Below are positions 48,113 through 53,658 of a stretch of DNA of 64,000 nt, in pieces. Below the pieces are notes generated by a model. The model worked only from the letters and a program-made list of their open reading frames with translations. It was not told the origin of the DNA and did no database searches. The position numbers and the translations under genes were made by a program. The stretch is from a virus (lineage: Duplodnaviria; Caudoviricetes): IMG/VR virus record IMGVR_UViG_3300041413_000047, positions 14,541-78,540 of that record. One strand, written 5' to 3'. Each line of letters starts with the position of its first letter. Position 1 is the first letter of the stretch.

Positions 48113-48694
48113 TCAGGAGCGTCGGGCGTCGCCGTGGTCGGGTAGGCCTGCGGAGTTCCGTCCGTGGTGGTGCCAGGTCCAGGACCGTCGGGGCAGGTGG
48201 ACGATCTTCGCTCCGGCGGCGATGCAGCCTTTGGTGAAGAGGAAGTCTTCGCCTGCGACTTGGACGGTGGGGTCGGCGATGAACCCGACGGTCTTCGCGA
48301 GTTCGGTGCGGACGAGGATGGTGATGGTCGTGCTGTTCGGGCATGCGGGGTCGAAGGGGCGGCCGTAGAACATGGGGAAGGGGTCGGTGCCGCCGACGAC
48401 GCGGAACCACGGGTACACGTAGTCCGCGCCCGTCTCCTTGGCGTGGGCGAGGAGGTGTTCGATGTGGTCGGGGTCGAGTTCGTCGTCGGAGTCGAGGAAC
48501 GCGGTCCACTCCGTGTCGACGAGTGCGAGGCCGTGGGCGCGGGTGATGGCGGCGCCCACGTGGTGGATGTCCTCGGCGAGGATGTGCTCGACGGGGACGG
48601 TCTGCGCGCGGACGGAAGCGGCGGCGCGTTCGAGCATGCCGTTGGTCTGGCGCTGGGTATGCCACGGCGTGACCACGCTGACGCCCGGCTTCAC
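48113..48694 (-). CDS. glycosyltransferase family 2
   Basis: VSVVTP, ASVRAQT, TEWTAFLDSDD (DxD), GEDF.F. Confidence 0.9.
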   Translation of the reverse strand: MKPGVSVVTPWHTQRQTNGMLERAAASVRAQTVPVEHILAEDIHHVGAAITRAHGLALVDTEWTAFLDSDDELDPDHIEHLLAHAKETGADYVYPWFRVVGGTDPFPMFYGRPFDPACPNSTTITILVRTELAKTVGFIADPTVQVAGEDFLFTKGCIAAGAKIVHLPRRSWTWHHHGRNSAGLPDHGDARRS

Positions 48695-49041
48695 GGCGTG
48701 CTCTCTGGTGAACCGATGGGGCCTTTCGGTGACTCGATCACGTAGGCGCCCTGCCGCAGCCCGTGCGCCTCGGCGGTGTAGCCGTTCGTGGCCCATTCGT
48801 CCGCGACTTTCCGCTGCTGCTCCAACAGGTCGCGCGTGAACGCGTCGCGGAACTCTTCCATCAGCTTCGCCGCATTCGCCTCTCCGGCCAGCCGGTTCAG
48901 AGTCGGCATCAGGCCATCCCGCAGCGCGTCGCGTCCGATCTCCAGTGCCACTTCGTCACGGTGGGCGTCGATGAGGGCGTTCTTCTCCGCCGCCGACCGC
49001 TGGTCCCAGATGTCGTTGAACAGCGCGTCGCGTGCGCTCAT
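48691..49041 (-). CDS. hypothetical protein
   Basis: Coupled ORF MSARDALFNDIW... Confidence 0.65.
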   Translation of the reverse strand: MSARDALFNDIWDQRSAAEKNALIDAHRDEVALEIGRDALRDGLMPTLNRLAGEANAAKLMEEFRDAFTRDLLEQQRKVADEWATNGYTAEAHGLRQGAYVIESPKGPIGSPESTP

Positions 49042-49475
49042 CGCGGCGTCCCCTTCCAGTGACCTTCCCAGCCGTCTACGACTTCGAGCTCCAGCGTCTG
49101 CCACAGCCGGATGCCGTAGTCGGCGTTCGCCGCGAACAGGCCGTCGAAGTAGTGGAACGACTCCTTGCACCAGTAGCTGACGTGGGTGGGGTCGGCGATC
49201 GCATGCCAGGTGCCGACCATGAGCGGCACGATGATCTCGAACACGCCGCCCGGTCGGAGTACGCGGTGCGCTTCGTTCATTACGTCGATGCGTTCCTGTC
49301 CGGCCGGGATGTGCTCCATCACGTGGCTCGCGCGGATCGCGGACACCGTGTTGTCGCCGGTCGGCCACGGGGTGTCCTGCGCCATGCGTCGCCACTCCCC
49401 AGCCCCGTTACGGGAGTCGAGGTTGACCCACCCGGGCTGGACGAGGGTGCCGCCGCCTATCTCGATGCTCGTCAC
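49038..49475 (-). CDS. SAM-dependent methyltransferase (Methyltransf_11-like)
   Basis: IEIGGG...WVNLD, ASHVMEHI, HRVLRPGG, ADPTH. Confidence 0.88.
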   Translation of the reverse strand: MTSIEIGGGTLVQPGWVNLDSRNGAGEWRRMAQDTPWPTGDNTVSAIRASHVMEHIPAGQERIDVMNEAHRVLRPGGVFEIIVPLMVGTWHAIADPTHVSYWCKESFHYFDGLFAANADYGIRLWQTLELEVVDGWEGHWKGTPR

Positions 49476-49753
49476 CGCCGCGCCTCCTTCGTCAGGGCCG
49501 CGCGCAGGGTTGCCTCGGCGCGCCGGAAGCCGTCGTTGTCGACAGACTCGGGGAACGAGAACGGCTCGCTCTCGGTGGCTGTGACCAGCGACCATCCGAG
49601 CACGTCCCCGTCCTTCTCGTGCAGGGCCAGCGCGACGCCGCGCGGATGGAACACGGCCCGGTTGATCAGCCAGAGGAGTCCGGAGTCGGACAGTTCCAGC
49701 AGGGGTCGGTAGTCCTGTGTCCACCCCGGAGCGCTGCGGTTCAGGTTCGTCAT
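49472..49753 (-). CDS. hypothetical protein
   Basis: GLLWLINRAVFHPRG.AL; coupled ORF. Confidence 0.65.
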   Translation of the reverse strand: MTNLNRSAPGWTQDYRPLLELSDSGLLWLINRAVFHPRGVALALHEKDGDVLGWSLVTATESEPFSFPESVDNDGFRRAEATLRAALTKEARR

Positions 49754-50019
49754 CACACACGCTCCGGCCAGTGCCACGTGCCGCCCTGGCTCTCGGTGAA
49801 GTCGGCCATGCATCCGCCGCTTTCCAGGGAGTGGAAGAACTGGCCCGTCGGGTTGAGGACCGCGAGGCCCACCCAGAACGGCTTGACCTCGTCGACCTCG
49901 GTGACGATCGCAGCCCGACACTTCGGCGCGTACGCCTGAGTGCCGTCCTCGCGGACCGGAGTCCCATGTGACACGTAATGCACCACTCGGCCCACCGTCG
50001 GTATCTGCTGCTCGCTCAT
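49753..50019 (-). CDS. conserved actinophage-type hypothetical protein
   Basis: PTVGRVVHYVS.G...CRAAIVTEV...GTWHWPERV. Confidence 0.75.
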   Translation of the reverse strand: MSEQQIPTVGRVVHYVSHGTPVREDGTQAYAPKCRAAIVTEVDEVKPFWVGLAVLNPTGQFFHSLESGGCMADFTESQGGTWHWPERV

Positions 50020-50026
50020 TCCTGCC

Positions 50027-51770: not shown

Positions 51771-52288
51771 GGTTGGCTCCCTACAGGTACGGATTTCCAG
51801 GTGCGGCCTGCGCTGATGTTGGCGACAATCCCGCGTGACACGCCGAAGTCCTGCGCTATGACGGACTGCTTCTCTCCCGCCGCCAGCCGCTTCCGAATGA
51901 CGGTCACGGAGCGCTCGTCGACCTGCGCTCGCCCGTTCCGTGATCCGGTGTTGTGAGTCCCATGAAGGTGGCGATCGGCGTAGTTCTCTTCCGGCGTCCC
52001 CCACTGCAAGTTGGAGAGCTGGTTGTTTAGTCCGTTGCCGTCGAGATGACGGCACACCATTCCCTCGGGGCGCGGGCCGACGAACGCCTCAAGCACAAGG
52101 ATGTGCGCTTTCGTCTGGCGTGAACGGCCCAGCTTGATCTGCTGGTACCCGTGAACCGCCGCAGGGGTAAGAATCCGCGGCGCGGCAGTGGGGTGGCCCT
52201 GCCGGTTGCGGTAGCTGCGGACACGGCCGATATCGCTGACCTCGTATCCTGGGTGCCCCGGCACGGCGCGCCAGGTTTCAGTTACCAC
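51767..52288 (-). CDS. NUMOD4-HNH homing endonuclease
   Basis: WRAVPG.PGYEVSDIGRVRS; HILVLEAFVG, CRHLDGN..NN..SNL.WGT..EN. Confidence 0.92.
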   Translation of the reverse strand: MVTETWRAVPGHPGYEVSDIGRVRSYRNRQGHPTAAPRILTPAAVHGYQQIKLGRSRQTKAHILVLEAFVGPRPEGMVCRHLDGNGLNNQLSNLQWGTPEENYADRHLHGTHNTGSRNGRAQVDERSVTVIRKRLAAGEKQSVIAQDFGVSRGIVANISAGRTWKSVPVGSQP

Positions 52289-52959
52289 GGCCTCTTCCCC
52301 CACTTCTTGCGGAAGGTCTCCATGTCGCGCCCTGCCTGCTCGGCGAGCTCGGGGCGCTCGTTCGTCGAGATATTGGGCGCGCGATGCTCAACCGGGATGC
52401 CAGGCACGAGGAGGGCTCCCCCCTTCAGGCGCGCCGTCCAGTCGATGTCGTCGTCGCTCGCCCACCAGGCCATCGACTCGTCGAGGCGCAGCCCGGTCTC
52501 GCCGCGCAGCATGTAGGCGTAGCCGGTGATCCGCTGCCGCAGGTCGATGGGTTCGGCCCGGGTGTGGAGGATCTGCCGTCGGCCGCCGTGCTGGTCCGGG
52601 TAGGCAAGGACTGCGGTGGTGGAGCGCATCGCCGTCGACAGGGTGTCGGTCCAGCCGGGCGGGATGACGGTGTCGGAGTTGAGGACGGCGATGTCCCACG
52701 CCACGGATCGGGCAGCGTGGGCGGCGGCGTCCGCGAGGGCGATGCCGACGTTCCACAGGGTGCTGATGTTCGGCGGGTCGATGGGCAGCGAGACGACGGC
52801 CACATCCCCGTGCCACGACTCGGGGTCGATCGGCGGGCTGGAGAGGTTGTCGATGACGATGACCCGGTCGACCTGGTCGATGACCGAGTTGATGCAGTCG
52901 GCGAGCATGTCGTGCCGGTCGCGGGCCGGGATGACCGCGGCGCGGAAGGGGCGGCTCAT
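52282..52959 (-). CDS. glycosyltransferase family 2
   Basis: AVIPARDR, VIVIDN, AVLNSDT, WW.SDDD. Confidence 0.88.
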   Translation of the reverse strand: MSRPFRAAVIPARDRHDMLADCINSVIDQVDRVIVIDNLSSPPIDPESWHGDVAVVSLPIDPPNISTLWNVGIALADAAAHAARSVAWDIAVLNSDTVIPPGWTDTLSTAMRSTTAVLAYPDQHGGRRQILHTRAEPIDLRQRITGYAYMLRGETGLRLDESMAWWASDDDIDWTARLKGGALLVPGIPVEHRAPNISTNERPELAEQAGRDMETFRKKWGKRPW

Positions 52960-53618
52960 ACGGCAGCCGCCTGCGCGTGCAGTGCCGCGCGCAGCAGCGA
53001 GTCCGGGGTCCCCATGTCCGACCACACGCCCGGCGTCTCGTACACGTCCATCAGCCCGTGCTGGAGGTACCAGTTGTTGACGTCCGTGATCTCCAGCTCG
53101 CCGCGCGCCGACGGGGTGAGGCCGCGGATGCTGTCGAAGACGCGGTCGTCGTACACGTACAGGCCGGTCACCGCGAGATCCGACACCGGATCCGCTGGTT
53201 TCTCCACGATCCTGCCGTTGCCCGGCTCGTAGATCCCGAACGCCGACGGGCGCTCCGTGCGGGCCGTGAAAATCGACGGCCGGTCCGGCATCGTGAAGTC
53301 GCCCGCGAAGTAGTTGTCGCCGAGGATCACCGGGAACAGGCCGTCGACATAGCCTTCCGCCATGGCGAGCGCGCCGGCGATTCCGTTCGGCTCGTCCTGC
53401 ACCCGGTACGTGAACCCGGACCCCAGGAGTTGAGCGAATCCGCCGACGTTCTCCCCGCCCGTCACGATGAGGATGTCGTCGCAGCCCATCGCCCGAAGTG
53501 TCCTGATGGGGTGGTAGATCATCGGCTGGTCGTAGACGGGCAGCAGATGCTTGTTCACGACGCGTGTGGTGTCGCCGAGCCGGGTGCCCCGGCCGCCGGC
53601 AAGGATGACGCCTCTCAT
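52956..53618 (-). CDS. rmlA: sugar-1-phosphate nucleotidyltransferase (RmlA-like)
   Basis: GVILAGG.GTRL, NKHLLPVYDQPMIYHPI, ILGDN, EKP, RGELEITD, WSDMGT. Confidence 0.93.
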   Translation of the reverse strand: MRGVILAGGRGTRLGDTTRVVNKHLLPVYDQPMIYHPIRTLRAMGCDDILIVTGGENVGGFAQLLGSGFTYRVQDEPNGIAGALAMAEGYVDGLFPVILGDNYFAGDFTMPDRPSIFTARTERPSAFGIYEPGNGRIVEKPADPVSDLAVTGLYVYDDRVFDSIRGLTPSARGELEITDVNNWYLQHGLMDVYETPGVWSDMGTPDSLLRAALHAQAAAV

Positions 53619-53625
53619 GCGCGGC

Positions 53626-53658
53626 AGGATGCCAGCGGAATCCGCCCCGCCATTCCGG
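53626..53658 (-). promoter_or_regulatory. late-type promoter CCGGAATG..-CATCCT (N21; leaderless rmlA)
   Basis: The -10 element is 7 nt before ATG 53618. Confidence 0.7.

What the first reader, a model, noticed from the sequence alone, without database searches (positions are those of the whole stretch)
48113..53658. Nucleotide-sugar synthesis and transfer pathway between terS and terL: likely virion glycosylation with a custom sugar
Seen: RmlA-like nucleotidyltransferase, GT2, SDR epimerase/dehydratase, DUF616-type GT, SAM methyltransferase and a second GT2, translationally coupled under a late-type promoter, plus the distant GT4. Known: some mycobacteriophages glycosylate capsid and tail proteins with phage GTs encoded near packaging genes. 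Inference: this phage also makes and methylates its own donor sugar, suggesting a more elaborate, host-independent glycan coat. DNA glycosylation seems less likely because I saw no base-hydroxymethylase and the timing looks late.
Basis: partly seen in the sequence, partly recalled or inferred. Interest (0 to 1): 0.85.

Follow-up and report, generated by a model that had tools for sequence, protein, structure and literature searches.

The report
Sugar-adding gene cassette in Streptomyces phage
A complete 78.5 kb Streptomyces phage genome carries, inside its late packaging operon, a conserved set of soluble sugar-making, sugar-transferring and methylating enzymes that most likely coat its own particle proteins with sugars, though the target is inferred and not shown.

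Summary
On the minus strand at 48113-53618 lie an RmlA-like nucleotidyltransferase, a GT2, a short SDR, a DUF616/TOD1 GT, a small SAM methyltransferase and a second GT2. Their reading frames overlap by 4 or 22 bases, and a promoter-like motif shared with structural genes lies upstream.

The window is a complete IMG/VR virus with no close isolated relative. Prophage relatives sit in two Streptomyces genomes. In 21 relatives with a whole terS-TerL interval, GT2a, DUF616, MT and GT2b are nearly universal and the SDR is in 18. A 4,6-dehydratase (RmlB-like) is in 14 and RmlA in only 7. This phage lacks the dehydratase, so "host-independent" is not supported.

The pathway looks like an NDP-6-deoxyhexose route. 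All proteins are soluble and no flippase or transporter is present. The genome has no thymidylate-synthase-like or TET enzyme, which makes DNA glycosylation unlikely.

Virion protein O-glycosylation is the best reading (about 0.5). It rests on analogy: no GT here is detectably homologous to the essential Che8 gp110/Corndog gp38. The tail tube's conserved Thr/Pro-rich C-terminal tail is a candidate acceptor. I class it as a new variant of a known kind, of moderate interest.

The parts
53671..54228 (-). 185-aa protein at the small-terminase position ('terS' by position only)
   Evidence: Matches phrog_3678, which has no known function. No Pfam or NCBIfam family and no GenBank phage homologue. 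Conserved at 44-77% identity upstream of the cassette in relatives.
53626..53658 (-). Promoter-like motif CCGGAA-N21-CATCCT, ending 8 nt before the rmlA-like ATG
   Evidence: The pattern occurs 8 times in the window against 0.93 expected, and no shuffle reached 8. Other copies precede the terS candidate, TerL, the portal gene, the 167-aa gene upstream of the putative tape-measure gene, and the GT4-like gene.
52956..53618 (-). Short-form RmlA-like sugar-1-phosphate nucleotidyltransferase (220 aa)
   Evidence: PF00483 2e-40. TIGR01207 scores 176.7 bits, below the cut-off of 360.65. PDB 3hl3/4ecm 3e-54. Present in only 7 of 21 relatives.
52282..52959 (-). GT2a, a GT-A fold glycosyltransferase (225 aa)
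   Evidence: PF00535 at 24.5 bits. AF2 pLDDT 97.5. GT-A matches in PDB and BFVD. 59% identical to KimJongPhill gp109. Present in 19 of 21 relatives.
51767..52303 (-). HNH/NUMOD4 homing-endonuclease gene inserted between GT2a and the SDR
   Evidence: PF13392 4.5e-12 and PF07463 1.2e-6. GC3 is 0.75 against 0.84-0.94 for the other cassette genes. Absent from 21 relatives at E <= 1e-8; L033 holds a different HNH at the same junction.
50955..51770 (-). Short extended-SDR (271 aa), read as an NDP-sugar 4-ketoreductase or epimerase and not a dehydratase
   Evidence: PF01370 2.4e-33. GxxGxxG and YxxxK are kept; the TDE motif and about 15 loop residues are missing. Present in 18 of 21 relatives, usually together with a true RmlB-like gene.
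50290..50976 (-). DUF616/TOD1-MUCI70 type glycosyltransferase (228 aa)
   Evidence: PF04765 2.2e-6. AF2 pLDDT 90.6. TM 0.79-0.84 to viral DUF616 proteins. Z 12.5 to GT6/GT8-like retaining GT-A enzymes. Present in 19 of 21 relatives. Found in 1 of 301 Streptomyces species genomes, and that one is the prophage host.
49472..50293 (-). Three small ORFs of 88, 88 and 94 aa (50027-50293, 49753-50019, 49472-49756) of unknown function; variable passengers
   Evidence: GC3 0.84-0.88. The second matches phrog_2293 and the third phrog_3954, both of unknown function. Only the second is found in relatives, in 8 of 21.
49038..49475 (-). Small class I SAM-dependent methyltransferase (145 aa)
   Evidence: PF08241 3.4e-5. 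phrog_6636 4.7e-10. Present in 19 of 21 relatives. Not homologous to the methyltransferases of KimJongPhill or Corndog.
48691..49041 (-). 116-aa ORF of unknown function
   Evidence: No family hit. Present in a few relatives only.
48113..48694 (-). GT2b, a GT2 glycosyltransferase (193 aa)
   Evidence: PF00535 1.2e-11. phrog_14775 2e-43. 59% identical to KimJongPhill gp107. hhalign gives 85% probability to the N-terminal GT2 domain of Che8 gp108. Present in 20 of 21 relatives.
46661..48046 (-). Large terminase, directly downstream of the cassette
   Evidence: tblastn gives 44% identity to the TerL of Streptomyces phage mu1/6, E 2e-96.
37698..37748 (-). Conserved Thr/Pro-rich C-terminal tail (TTTAPPTAACDPTTLAA) of the major tail protein (gene 37695-38372); candidate O-glycan acceptor, by inference
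   Evidence: phrog_792, major tail protein, 3.5e-35. Homology to annotated actinophage major tail proteins stops near residue 183. The tail is conserved in all 21 distinct relatives' sequences read through to the stop codon.
24158..25204 (-). GT-B-like ('GT4') glycosyltransferase with the same promoter-like motif upstream
   Evidence: PF13524 9.5e-6. phrog_7162 3e-32. 72-82% identical in 5 related viruses and 2 Streptomyces prophages. 30% identical to KimJongPhill gp6. Motif copy at 25212-25244.

Best explanation
The cassette is a core late-expressed glycosylation module of an uncultivated lineage of temperate Streptomyces siphophages.

Inferred pathway:
- The RmlA-like enzyme activates a hexose-1-phosphate to an NDP-hexose.
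- A 4,6-dehydratase makes the NDP-4-keto-6-deoxyhexose. Most relatives encode this enzyme; this phage does not, so here it must come from the host.
- The short SDR reduces or epimerises that intermediate to an NDP-6-deoxyhexose.
- Three soluble GT-A transferases (GT2a, DUF616, GT2b), plus the distant GT-B-like enzyme, build a short glycan in the cytoplasm.
- The small methyltransferase O-methylates that glycan.

The most likely acceptors are the phage's own structural proteins while they assemble. This is the situation reported for mycobacteriophages Che8, Corndog and Myrna. The conserved Thr/Pro-rich C-terminal tail of the tail tube protein is the leading candidate site.

Shown: the enzyme families, the operon structure, the conservation, the solubility of every protein, and the absence of DNA-hydroxylating enzymes.
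Inferred: the identity of the sugar, the order of steps, late timing, and the acceptor.
For: 1. The enzyme families are significant, and both modelled GTs have GT-A folds.
2. The genes sit between the terS candidate and TerL on the same strand. Their reading frames overlap by 4 or 22 nt. No minus-strand terminator lies between them. The promoter-like motif upstream is shared with portal, terminase and tail-region genes, at 8 copies against 0.93 expected.
3. The cassette is core to the lineage, not sporadic. GT2a, DUF616, MT and GT2b are in 19-20 of 21 relatives at the same site. Two more distant complete or near-complete relatives carry GT2 genes elsewhere in the genome. The GT-B-like gene is 72-82% identical in all 7 genomes checked.
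4. The relatives' extra gene after terS has the TDE and YxxxK motifs of a 4,6-dehydratase. This points to a 6-deoxyhexose route.
5. No cluster protein has a transmembrane segment; the highest KD19 value is 1.43. No flippase, polymerase or transporter is present, so the acceptor is cytoplasmic.
6. The genome has no ThyA, ThyX, TET/JBP or P-loop kinase3 enzyme.
7. The DUF616 GT has no paralogue in 300 other Streptomyces species genomes, so it is not a copy of a host wall enzyme.
8. Precedent exists. Mycobacteriophages glycosylate capsid and tail tube proteins with their own GTs and an O-methyltransferase encoded among structural genes (PMC11600133, PMC12363180, both citing Freeman 2023).
9. Weak hints towards a protein substrate: distant GT2a-family members are fused to TPR repeats, and one relative (L040) has a prolyl-4-hydroxylase-type 2OG oxygenase in the cassette.
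10. The tail tube protein carries a lineage-specific conserved TTTxPPT...TT tail.
Against: - No GT here is detectably homologous to the essential Che8 gp110 or Corndog gp38 by blastp or hhalign (probabilities 0.1-0.8%). Only GT2b resembles the GT2 domain of Che8 gp108.
- Fold matches include teichoic-acid GTs (TarS, TarP) and small-molecule GTs (AvpGT) as readily as protein GTs.
- The Thr-rich tail is also present in distant relatives whose terS-TerL slot lacks these GTs (L046, L051), so no with/without contrast exists.
- KimJongPhill shares four of the glyco genes but none of the structural proteins, and its capsid and tail tube C-termini are not Thr-rich.
- There are no expression data and no virion chemistry.
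- I could not read the primary paper, Freeman 2023.
Confidence: 0.5

Rival explanations
1. The soluble GTs and the methyltransferase redecorate a host cell-wall glycopolymer (teichoic, teichuronic or teichulosonic acid) or its lipid-linked precursor on the cytoplasmic face. This would be analogous to prophage-encoded TarP in Staphylococcus aureus. The effect would be to mask the phage receptor, either for superinfection exclusion or to stop progeny sticking to debris.
For: - The phage looks temperate: prophage relatives sit in Streptomyces chromosomes and one relative is classed as a provirus.
- GT2a's Foldseek matches include TarS and TarP at E of about 1e-8. GT2b has weak sequence hits to TarP, PglI and TuaG.
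- The tail carries a BNR/sialidase-like protein, which suggests a glycopolymer receptor.
- Unrelated Streptomyces phages share the same GTs but no structural proteins. That would fit a common host substrate.
Against: - The cassette is embedded in and coupled to the late packaging operon, and it shares the structural genes' promoter-like motif.
- It is a core, fixed-position gene set rather than a sporadic moron.
- No membrane protein, flippase or anchor is present.
- The DUF616 GT has no host paralogue in 300 other Streptomyces genomes. TarP, by contrast, is a paralogue of host TarS (my own knowledge).
Confidence: 0.2
2. The cassette glycosylates phage DNA, as a base hypermodification against restriction.
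For: - Phage DNA glycosylation clusters do combine NDP-sugar enzymes with several GTs (PMC13326640).
- The genome encodes a C5-cytosine DNA methylase at 2824-4278.
- One distant relative (L050) has Tet_JBP and P-loop kinase3 genes next to its RmlB-like gene upstream of TerL.
Against: - Known routes need a hydroxylated base made by a ThyA homologue (hmC, hmU, 5hoC) or by TET (PMC13326640). The complete genome has no PF00303, PF02511, PF12851 or PF18751 match.
- tblastn with the L050 TET and kinase proteins finds nothing in this genome or in the other relatives.
- I found no DNA polymerase or nucleotide-metabolism gene among the 20 larger early-region proteins I scanned with Pfam.
Confidence: 0.04
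3. The enzymes act on another cytoplasmic target. This could be a small molecule, such as a host-made anti-phage metabolite that glycosylation inactivates, or a host protein. The cassette would then be a counter-defence or takeover module.
For: - The best PDB Foldseek match of GT2a is AvpGT, a promiscuous nucleoside-analogue glucosyltransferase (PMC11959488).
- Streptomyces produce many bioactive glycosylated metabolites (my own knowledge).
- The acceptor is not fixed by any result here.
Against: - Four conserved GTs, a methyltransferase and a dedicated sugar pathway are more than single-step inactivation needs.
- Late-operon placement is odd for a defence that should act early.
- TM-scores of about 0.6 show only a generic GT-A fold.
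Confidence: 0.12

Closest known systems
Mycobacteriophage virion O-glycosylation (Che8 gp108-110; Corndog gp35-38; Myrna). Freeman et al. 2023, as summarised in PMC11600133 and PMC12363180.
   Same: - The host is an actinobacterium.
- Several small soluble GTs and a methyltransferase are encoded in tandem beside head and packaging genes. In Corndog they lie between portal and protease.
- GT2b resembles the N-terminal GT2 domain of Che8 gp108 (hhalign 85%).
   Different: - There is no detectable homology to the essential gp110/gp38 family.
- A DUF616 GT and a GT-B-like GT are added.
- Nucleotide-sugar synthesis genes (RmlA here; RmlB, UGD and others in relatives) are part of the cassette.
- The cassette sits between terS and terL.
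- The host is Streptomyces.
- Glycosylated virions have not been shown.
Streptomyces phages KimJongPhill and Zuko (Zukovirus): annotated GT-MT-GT (gp107-109) and gp4-6 upstream of terS.
   Same: - GT2a is 58-60% identical to gp109/gp108, and GT2b 56-59% to gp107/gp106.
- The GT-B-like gene is about 30% identical to gp6, and the SDR is distantly similar to gp4.
- Their glyco genes also abut the terminase genes.
   Different: - These are otherwise unrelated phages with no shared structural proteins.
- Their methyltransferase is different.
- They have no DUF616 GT and no RmlA.
- Their cassette function is also untested, as far as I could find.
Giant-virus capsid glycosylation with virus-encoded sugar pathways (chloroviruses, mimiviruses; PMC9614988, PMC5408694).
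   Same: - The virus encodes both the nucleotide-sugar enzymes and the soluble GT-A transferases used in the cytoplasm on its own structural proteins.
- DUF616/TOD1 GTs of giant viruses are the closest viral folds to the DUF616 protein here.
- PBCV-1 A64R appears among the structural matches at Z 10.8.
   Different: - Those are eukaryotic viruses with unrelated capsids.
- The resemblance is in logic and fold only; sequence identity is 19-21%.
dTDP-6-deoxyhexose biosynthesis (RmlA/RmlB plus a 4-ketoreductase).
   Same: - The RmlA-like protein matches solved RmlA/RfbA structures at 1e-41 to 3e-54.
- The relatives' RmlB-like protein has the TDE and YxxxK motifs.
- An extra SDR follows.
   Different: - Both the RmlA-like and RmlB-like proteins score below NCBIfam equivalog cut-offs.
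- No RmlC-type epimerase was seen.
- The SDR is a truncated 271-aa form with a loop deletion.
- This phage lacks the dehydratase.
Prophage-encoded wall teichoic acid glycosyltransferase TarP (S. aureus).
   Same: It is a soluble GT-A enzyme encoded by a temperate phage. GT2a aligns structurally with it at E of about 2e-8 and TM 0.6.
   Different: - TarP is a single moron gene that is a paralogue of a host enzyme.
- Here a multi-enzyme core cassette sits in the late operon, and the DUF616 GT has no host paralogue.

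Membership tests
Che8/Corndog-type actinophage virion glycosylation system | A GT homologous to the essential Che8 gp110 / Corndog gp38 | tested here: not met
   blastp and hhalign of the GT2a, GT2b, DUF616 and MT family alignments against gp110, gp38 and their pair alignment gave probabilities of 0.1-0.8%.
Che8/Corndog-type actinophage virion glycosylation system | Tandem phage GTs with a methyltransferase beside virion or packaging genes | tested here: met
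   GT2a, DUF616 GT, MT and GT2b lie between the terS candidate and TerL. Compare Corndog gp35-38 between portal and protease (PMC11600133).
Che8/Corndog-type actinophage virion glycosylation system | O-glycans on capsid and tail tube subunits | not testable with these tools
   This needs virion mass spectrometry. The only lead is a conserved Thr/Pro-rich tail on the tail tube protein.
Glucose-1-phosphate thymidylyltransferase (RmlA/RfbA) | Equivalog-level HMM score | tested here: not met
   TIGR01207 scores 176.7 bits against a cut-off of 360.65. The protein is a 220-aa short form.
Glucose-1-phosphate thymidylyltransferase (RmlA/RfbA) | Nucleotidyltransferase fold with the N-terminal G-G-x-G-T-R-L motif and close similarity to solved RmlA structures | tested here: met
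   PF00483 2e-40. The sequence begins MRGVILAGGRGTRL. PDB 3hl3 3e-54 over residues 1-213.
NDP-hexose 4,6-dehydratase (RmlB) | Catalytic Thr-Asp-Glu plus YxxxK | tested here: not met
   The window's SDR keeps YxxxK but has GITMPP where TDE sits, and it lacks about 15 residues. The separate RmlB-like gene of relatives has both motifs but is absent from this genome.
GT2 / GT-A glycosyltransferases | Pfam PF00535 above the gathering score, and a GT-A fold | tested here: met
   GT2a scores 24.5 bits and GT2b 45.3 bits against a cut-off of 23.3. The GT2a model has pLDDT 97.5 and matches GT-A enzymes.
DUF616 / TOD1-MUCI70 glycosyltransferase-like | Pfam PF04765 above the cut-off, and a shared fold | tested here: met
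   27.7 bits against a cut-off of 21.4. TM 0.79-0.84 to viral DUF616/TOD1 proteins.
Phage DNA glycosylation (hmC/hmU/5hoC or TET route) | An enzyme that makes the hydroxylated base (ThyA homologue or TET/JBP) | tested here: not met
   PF00303, PF02511, PF12851 and PF18751 are all without match in the complete genome. The requirement is as described in PMC13326640.
Gtr-type seroconversion (GtrA/GtrB/GtrC) | Membrane flippase and membrane-anchored transferases | tested here: not met
   No hydrophobic segment in any cluster protein reaches KD19 1.6.
TarP/TarS-type teichoic acid glycosyltransferases | Specific similarity beyond the generic GT-A fold | tested here: inconclusive
   Foldseek E of about 1e-8 and TM 0.55-0.61, ranked alongside protein and small-molecule GTs. 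Sequence E 0.036.

The most novel reading that the evidence does not exclude
A widespread soil lineage of temperate Streptomyces phages decorates its tail tube, and perhaps other virion proteins, with methylated 6-deoxyhexose-containing O-glycans. The conserved TTTxPPT C-terminal tail would be the attachment site. The glycans would be built by phage-specific GTs unrelated to the mycobacteriophage ones and fed by a phage-encoded NDP-sugar pathway. The terS-terL slot would be a swappable 'glyco-island': RmlA, RmlB, an NDP-sugar dehydrogenase, a second methyltransferase and a prolyl-hydroxylase-like oxygenase come and go there. That turnover would imply ongoing diversification of the virion glycan. 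If so, this would be virion glycosylation outside Mycobacterium phages, with virus-made donor sugars as in giant viruses.
Probability: 0.3. Interest if true: 0.7.

Novelty: new variant of a known kind. Interest (0 to 1): 0.5.

Why it matters
As far as I could find, phage-particle glycosylation has been shown experimentally only for a few mycobacteriophages. There it shields virions from antibodies. What it does in soil is unknown.

This cassette shows that a large, uncultivated Streptomyces phage lineage keeps a more elaborate, non-homologous version as a core late function. GT2a alone has hundreds of close homologue clusters in metagenomes. The sugar-supply genes of the cassette vary from phage to phage.

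Two sequenced Streptomyces strains carry close prophage relatives. The idea can therefore be tested directly with virion mass spectrometry.

If the target instead proves to be the host wall, this would be a multi-enzyme receptor-masking system encoded in a late operon, which would also be unusual.

Tried and rejected
- **Link to the proven mycobacteriophage enzymes.** I tried blastp and profile-sequence hhalign against Che8 gp108-110 and Corndog gp35-38. Only GT2b matched, to the GT2 domain of gp108.
- **Reading the acceptor from the fold.** The AF2 models of GT2a and DUF616 are confident. Foldseek and VIA matches are generic GT-A enzymes of every acceptor class. This was not informative.
- **With/without comparison of the tail tube's Thr-rich tail.** Every relative has the tail. 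The two distant complete or near-complete genomes that lack the cassette at this site still carry GT2 genes elsewhere. There is no negative control.
- **A shared acceptor motif in KimJongPhill.** I looked at its capsid and tail tube C-termini and found none.
- **DNA modification.** I searched for ThyA, ThyX, TET/JBP and P-loop kinase3 families and found none.
- **Confirming 'terS'.** I tried Pfam, NCBIfam, PHROGs, GenBank phages and the ESM Atlas. All that emerged was a viral protein of unknown function.
- **The primary paper.** Freeman et al. 2023 is not held. What I say about it comes from citing papers and from my memory of its abstract.
- **Names for GT2a-family representatives.** The cluster look-up was uninformative.

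Full report
**What the window is.** The window is bases 14541-78540 of a 78,540-bp IMG/VR virus record. The record has direct terminal repeats and CheckV rates it 100% complete. In the assembly the last 100 bases recur at position 27, so the ends overlap by 127 bp. GC is about 69%. Because of the high GC, I called genes by third-position GC. The large terminase is at most 44% identical to any GenBank phage protein; the best match is Streptomyces phage mu1/6. There is therefore no close isolated relative.

**The observation.** The following genes lie on the minus strand, listed in the direction of transcription.
- A 185-aa protein at the terS position, 53671-54228.
- An RmlA-like nucleotidyltransferase, 52956-53618.
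- GT2a, 52282-52959.
- An HNH/NUMOD4 endonuclease, 51767-52303.
- A 271-aa SDR, 50955-51770.
- A DUF616/TOD1 GT, 50290-50976.
- Three small ORFs: 50027-50293, 49753-50019 and 49472-49756.
- A 145-aa SAM methyltransferase, 49038-49475.
- A 116-aa ORF, 48691-49041.
- GT2b, 48113-48694.
- TerL, 46661-48046.
- A DUF1360-like membrane protein, then the portal, a MuF fusion, the capsid protein and the tail tube protein.

Successive genes overlap by 4 or 22 nt, apart from one 7-nt gap. No minus-strand terminator lies in 46000-56000.

The motif CCGGAA-N21-NAnnnT occurs 8 times against 0.93 expected. Copies lie upstream of the terS candidate, the rmlA-like gene, TerL, the portal gene, the 167-aa gene upstream of the 1294-aa putative tape-measure gene (it matched no PHROG family), and the distant GT-B-like gene.

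The HNH gene and the small ORFs were missed, and 'terS' is a positional label only.

**Relatives.** IMG/VR holds dozens of related contigs. Two Streptomyces genomes, S. caniscabiei NE06-02D and Streptomyces sp. NPDC093591, carry prophages with the same arrangement. The host is therefore Streptomyces and the lineage is temperate.

In 21 loci that contain the whole terS-TerL interval, the counts are as follows.

| Gene | Present in |
|---|---|
| GT2b | 20 |
| GT2a | 19 |
| DUF616 GT | 19 |
| MT | 19 |
| Short SDR | 18 |
| ~340-aa RmlB-like gene after terS | 14 |
| RmlA-like gene | 7 |

The RmlB-like gene is the best NCBIfam match to dTDP-glucose 4,6-dehydratase, at about 173-208 bits and below the cut-off. 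It carries the canonical TDE and YxxxK motifs. It is absent from the window's genome.

Variants of the slot exist.
- L052 has the dehydratase, an NDP-sugar dehydrogenase and one GT2.
- L023 and L054 replace the SDR with a second methyltransferase-like protein.
- L040 adds a prolyl-4-hydroxylase-type 2OG oxygenase.

The HNH gene has a lower GC3 (0.75) and is missing from all 21 relatives. One relative (L033) has a different HNH at the same junction. I read it as a homing endonuclease passenger.

The GT-B-like gene at 24158-25204 is 72-82% identical in all seven related genomes examined.

GT2a alone has 573 homologue clusters (at 90% identity) in public data. Many lie on contigs of 65-78 kb. The lineage is therefore common in sequenced samples.

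**What the enzymes say.**
- The RmlA-like protein is a short form closest to Bacillus anthracis RfbA (3hl3, 3e-54).
- The SDR keeps its Rossmann motif and YxxxK. It lacks the Asp-Glu pair and about 15 residues around the usual catalytic Ser/Thr. In most relatives it co-occurs with a true dehydratase. I therefore read it as a 4-ketoreductase or epimerase acting after dehydration, and the pathway as an NDP-6-deoxyhexose route. This step is inferred.
- This phage lacks the dehydratase. It must either rely on a host enzyme or use the SDR on an NDP-hexose directly.
- GT2a (pLDDT 97.5) and the DUF616 protein (pLDDT 90.6) both model as GT-A folds.
- The nearest solved structures span teichoic-acid, polysaccharide, nucleoside and protein glycosyltransferases. 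The acceptor cannot be read from the fold.
- No cluster protein has a membrane segment, and there is no flippase, polymerase or transporter. The chemistry happens in the cytoplasm.

**Which target.**

*DNA.* Known phage DNA glycosylation attaches sugars to hydroxyl groups made by ThyA homologues or TET enzymes (PMC13326640). The complete genome has no PF00303, PF02511, PF12851 or PF18751 match. One distant relative (L050) does have Tet_JBP and a P-loop kinase near TerL. Those genes are found nowhere else in the set.

*Host wall polymer.* This cannot be excluded. The phage is temperate, TarP-like folds appear among the matches, and the tail carries a BNR/sialidase-like protein. Against it stand three points: the cassette is a fixed, coupled, core part of the late operon; it shares the structural genes' promoter-like motif; and the DUF616 GT has no paralogue in 300 other Streptomyces species genomes.

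*Virion proteins.* This is the best fit by analogy. Mycobacteriophages modify capsid and tail tube proteins with their own GTs and an O-methyltransferase encoded among structural genes (PMC11600133, PMC12363180). From my memory of the Freeman 2023 abstract, which I could not re-read, the glycans are O-linked at the C-termini of those subunits, and putative GTs were noted in some Streptomyces phages.

The tail tube protein here matches phrog_792 and is homologous to annotated actinophage major tail proteins over residues 1-183. It ends in a lineage-specific tail, TTTAPPTAACDPTTLAA, which is conserved in every relative. This is a candidate site and no more than that.

The analogy is weakened in two ways. 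No homology to Che8 gp110 or Corndog gp38 was detected. KimJongPhill and Zuko share four glyco genes with this phage but no structural proteins.

**Known or new.** GT and methyltransferase genes next to terminase genes are already annotated in isolated Streptomyces phages, and virion glycosylation is established in mycobacteriophages. Four things are new here.
- The enzyme set is non-homologous and larger: three GT-A enzymes including a DUF616 type that is very rare in GenBank phages (4 records, none from an actinophage), a GT-B-like enzyme, and a distinct methyltransferase.
- Sugar-nucleotide genes sit inside the cassette. No other actinophage in GenBank has the RmlA homologue.
- The cassette has a fixed position between terS and terL.
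- Its supply genes turn over modularly across a large uncultivated lineage.

I class it as a new variant of a known kind, with the function unproven, and score interest at 0.5.

**Limits.** The primary glycosylation paper was not available.

Noticed in passing
window 51767-52303 (-): An HNH_3/NUMOD4 endonuclease gene is wedged exactly between GT2a and the SDR. It overlaps GT2a by 22 nt and the SDR by 4 nt. Its GC3 is 0.75 against 0.84-0.94 for the other cassette genes. It is absent from 21 relatives; L033 has a different HNH (29% identical) at the same junction. It looks like a homing endonuclease hotspot.
   Followed up: partly
L050:619-2063 (a distant relative, IMGVR_UViG_3300049433_000053): A P-loop nucleotide kinase3 (PF18751) and a Tet_JBP dioxygenase (PF12851) lie upstream of the RmlB-like gene and TerL. 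This relative may hypermodify its DNA. These genes are found in no other locus of the set.
   Followed up: partly
L040:2462-3115: A 2OG-Fe(II) oxygenase of the prolyl-4-hydroxylase type (PF13640, 1e-14) sits between the RmlB-like gene and GT2a in one relative. This is a hint that proteins, via hydroxyproline, could be the substrates.
   Followed up: no
L052:3448-7634: A variant content of the same terS-TerL slot: an RmlB-like dehydratase, an unknown 232-aa protein, an NDP-sugar dehydrogenase (TIGR03026, 1.6e-51), one GT2b-like GT and an unknown 176-aa protein.
   Followed up: partly
window 41245-44253 (-): A 1002-aa MuF-like head protein. Its first ~180 residues match phrog_2659, annotated as RNA ligase (4e-28).
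   Followed up: no
window 26475-27557 (-): A BNR/sialidase-like protein (PF13088 2e-30; NCBIfam neuraminidase 3e-15) lies between the tail genes and the endolysin. It is a likely glycan-binding or glycan-cleaving tail protein.
   Followed up: partly
window 22083-22769 (-): A collagen-like Gly-X-Y repeat protein with an N-terminal hydrophobic segment lies just after a small protein with a C-terminal hydrophobic segment. It matches tail-fibre PHROGs (phrog_18350, 1e-44) but looks membrane-anchored.
   Followed up: no
window 2824-4278 (-): A 484-aa protein has a C5-cytosine DNA methylase N-terminal region (PF00145, 7e-18). The virion DNA may carry 5mC.
   Followed up: no
L004:9814-11946, L059:12343-14460, L050:6101-8251: The TerL match is split by about 0.55-0.8 kb in some relatives, which suggests an intein or an inserted endonuclease. 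It is not split in the window.
   Followed up: no
L060:1199-3758 (Streptomyces phage KimJongPhill gp4-6): Directly upstream of its terS, this isolated phage has a gene annotated 'UDP-glucose dehydrogenase', a methyltransferase and a GT. gp4 aligns with the window's SDR (25% identity, 3e-6) and gp6 with the window's GT-B-like gene (30% identity).
   Followed up: partly
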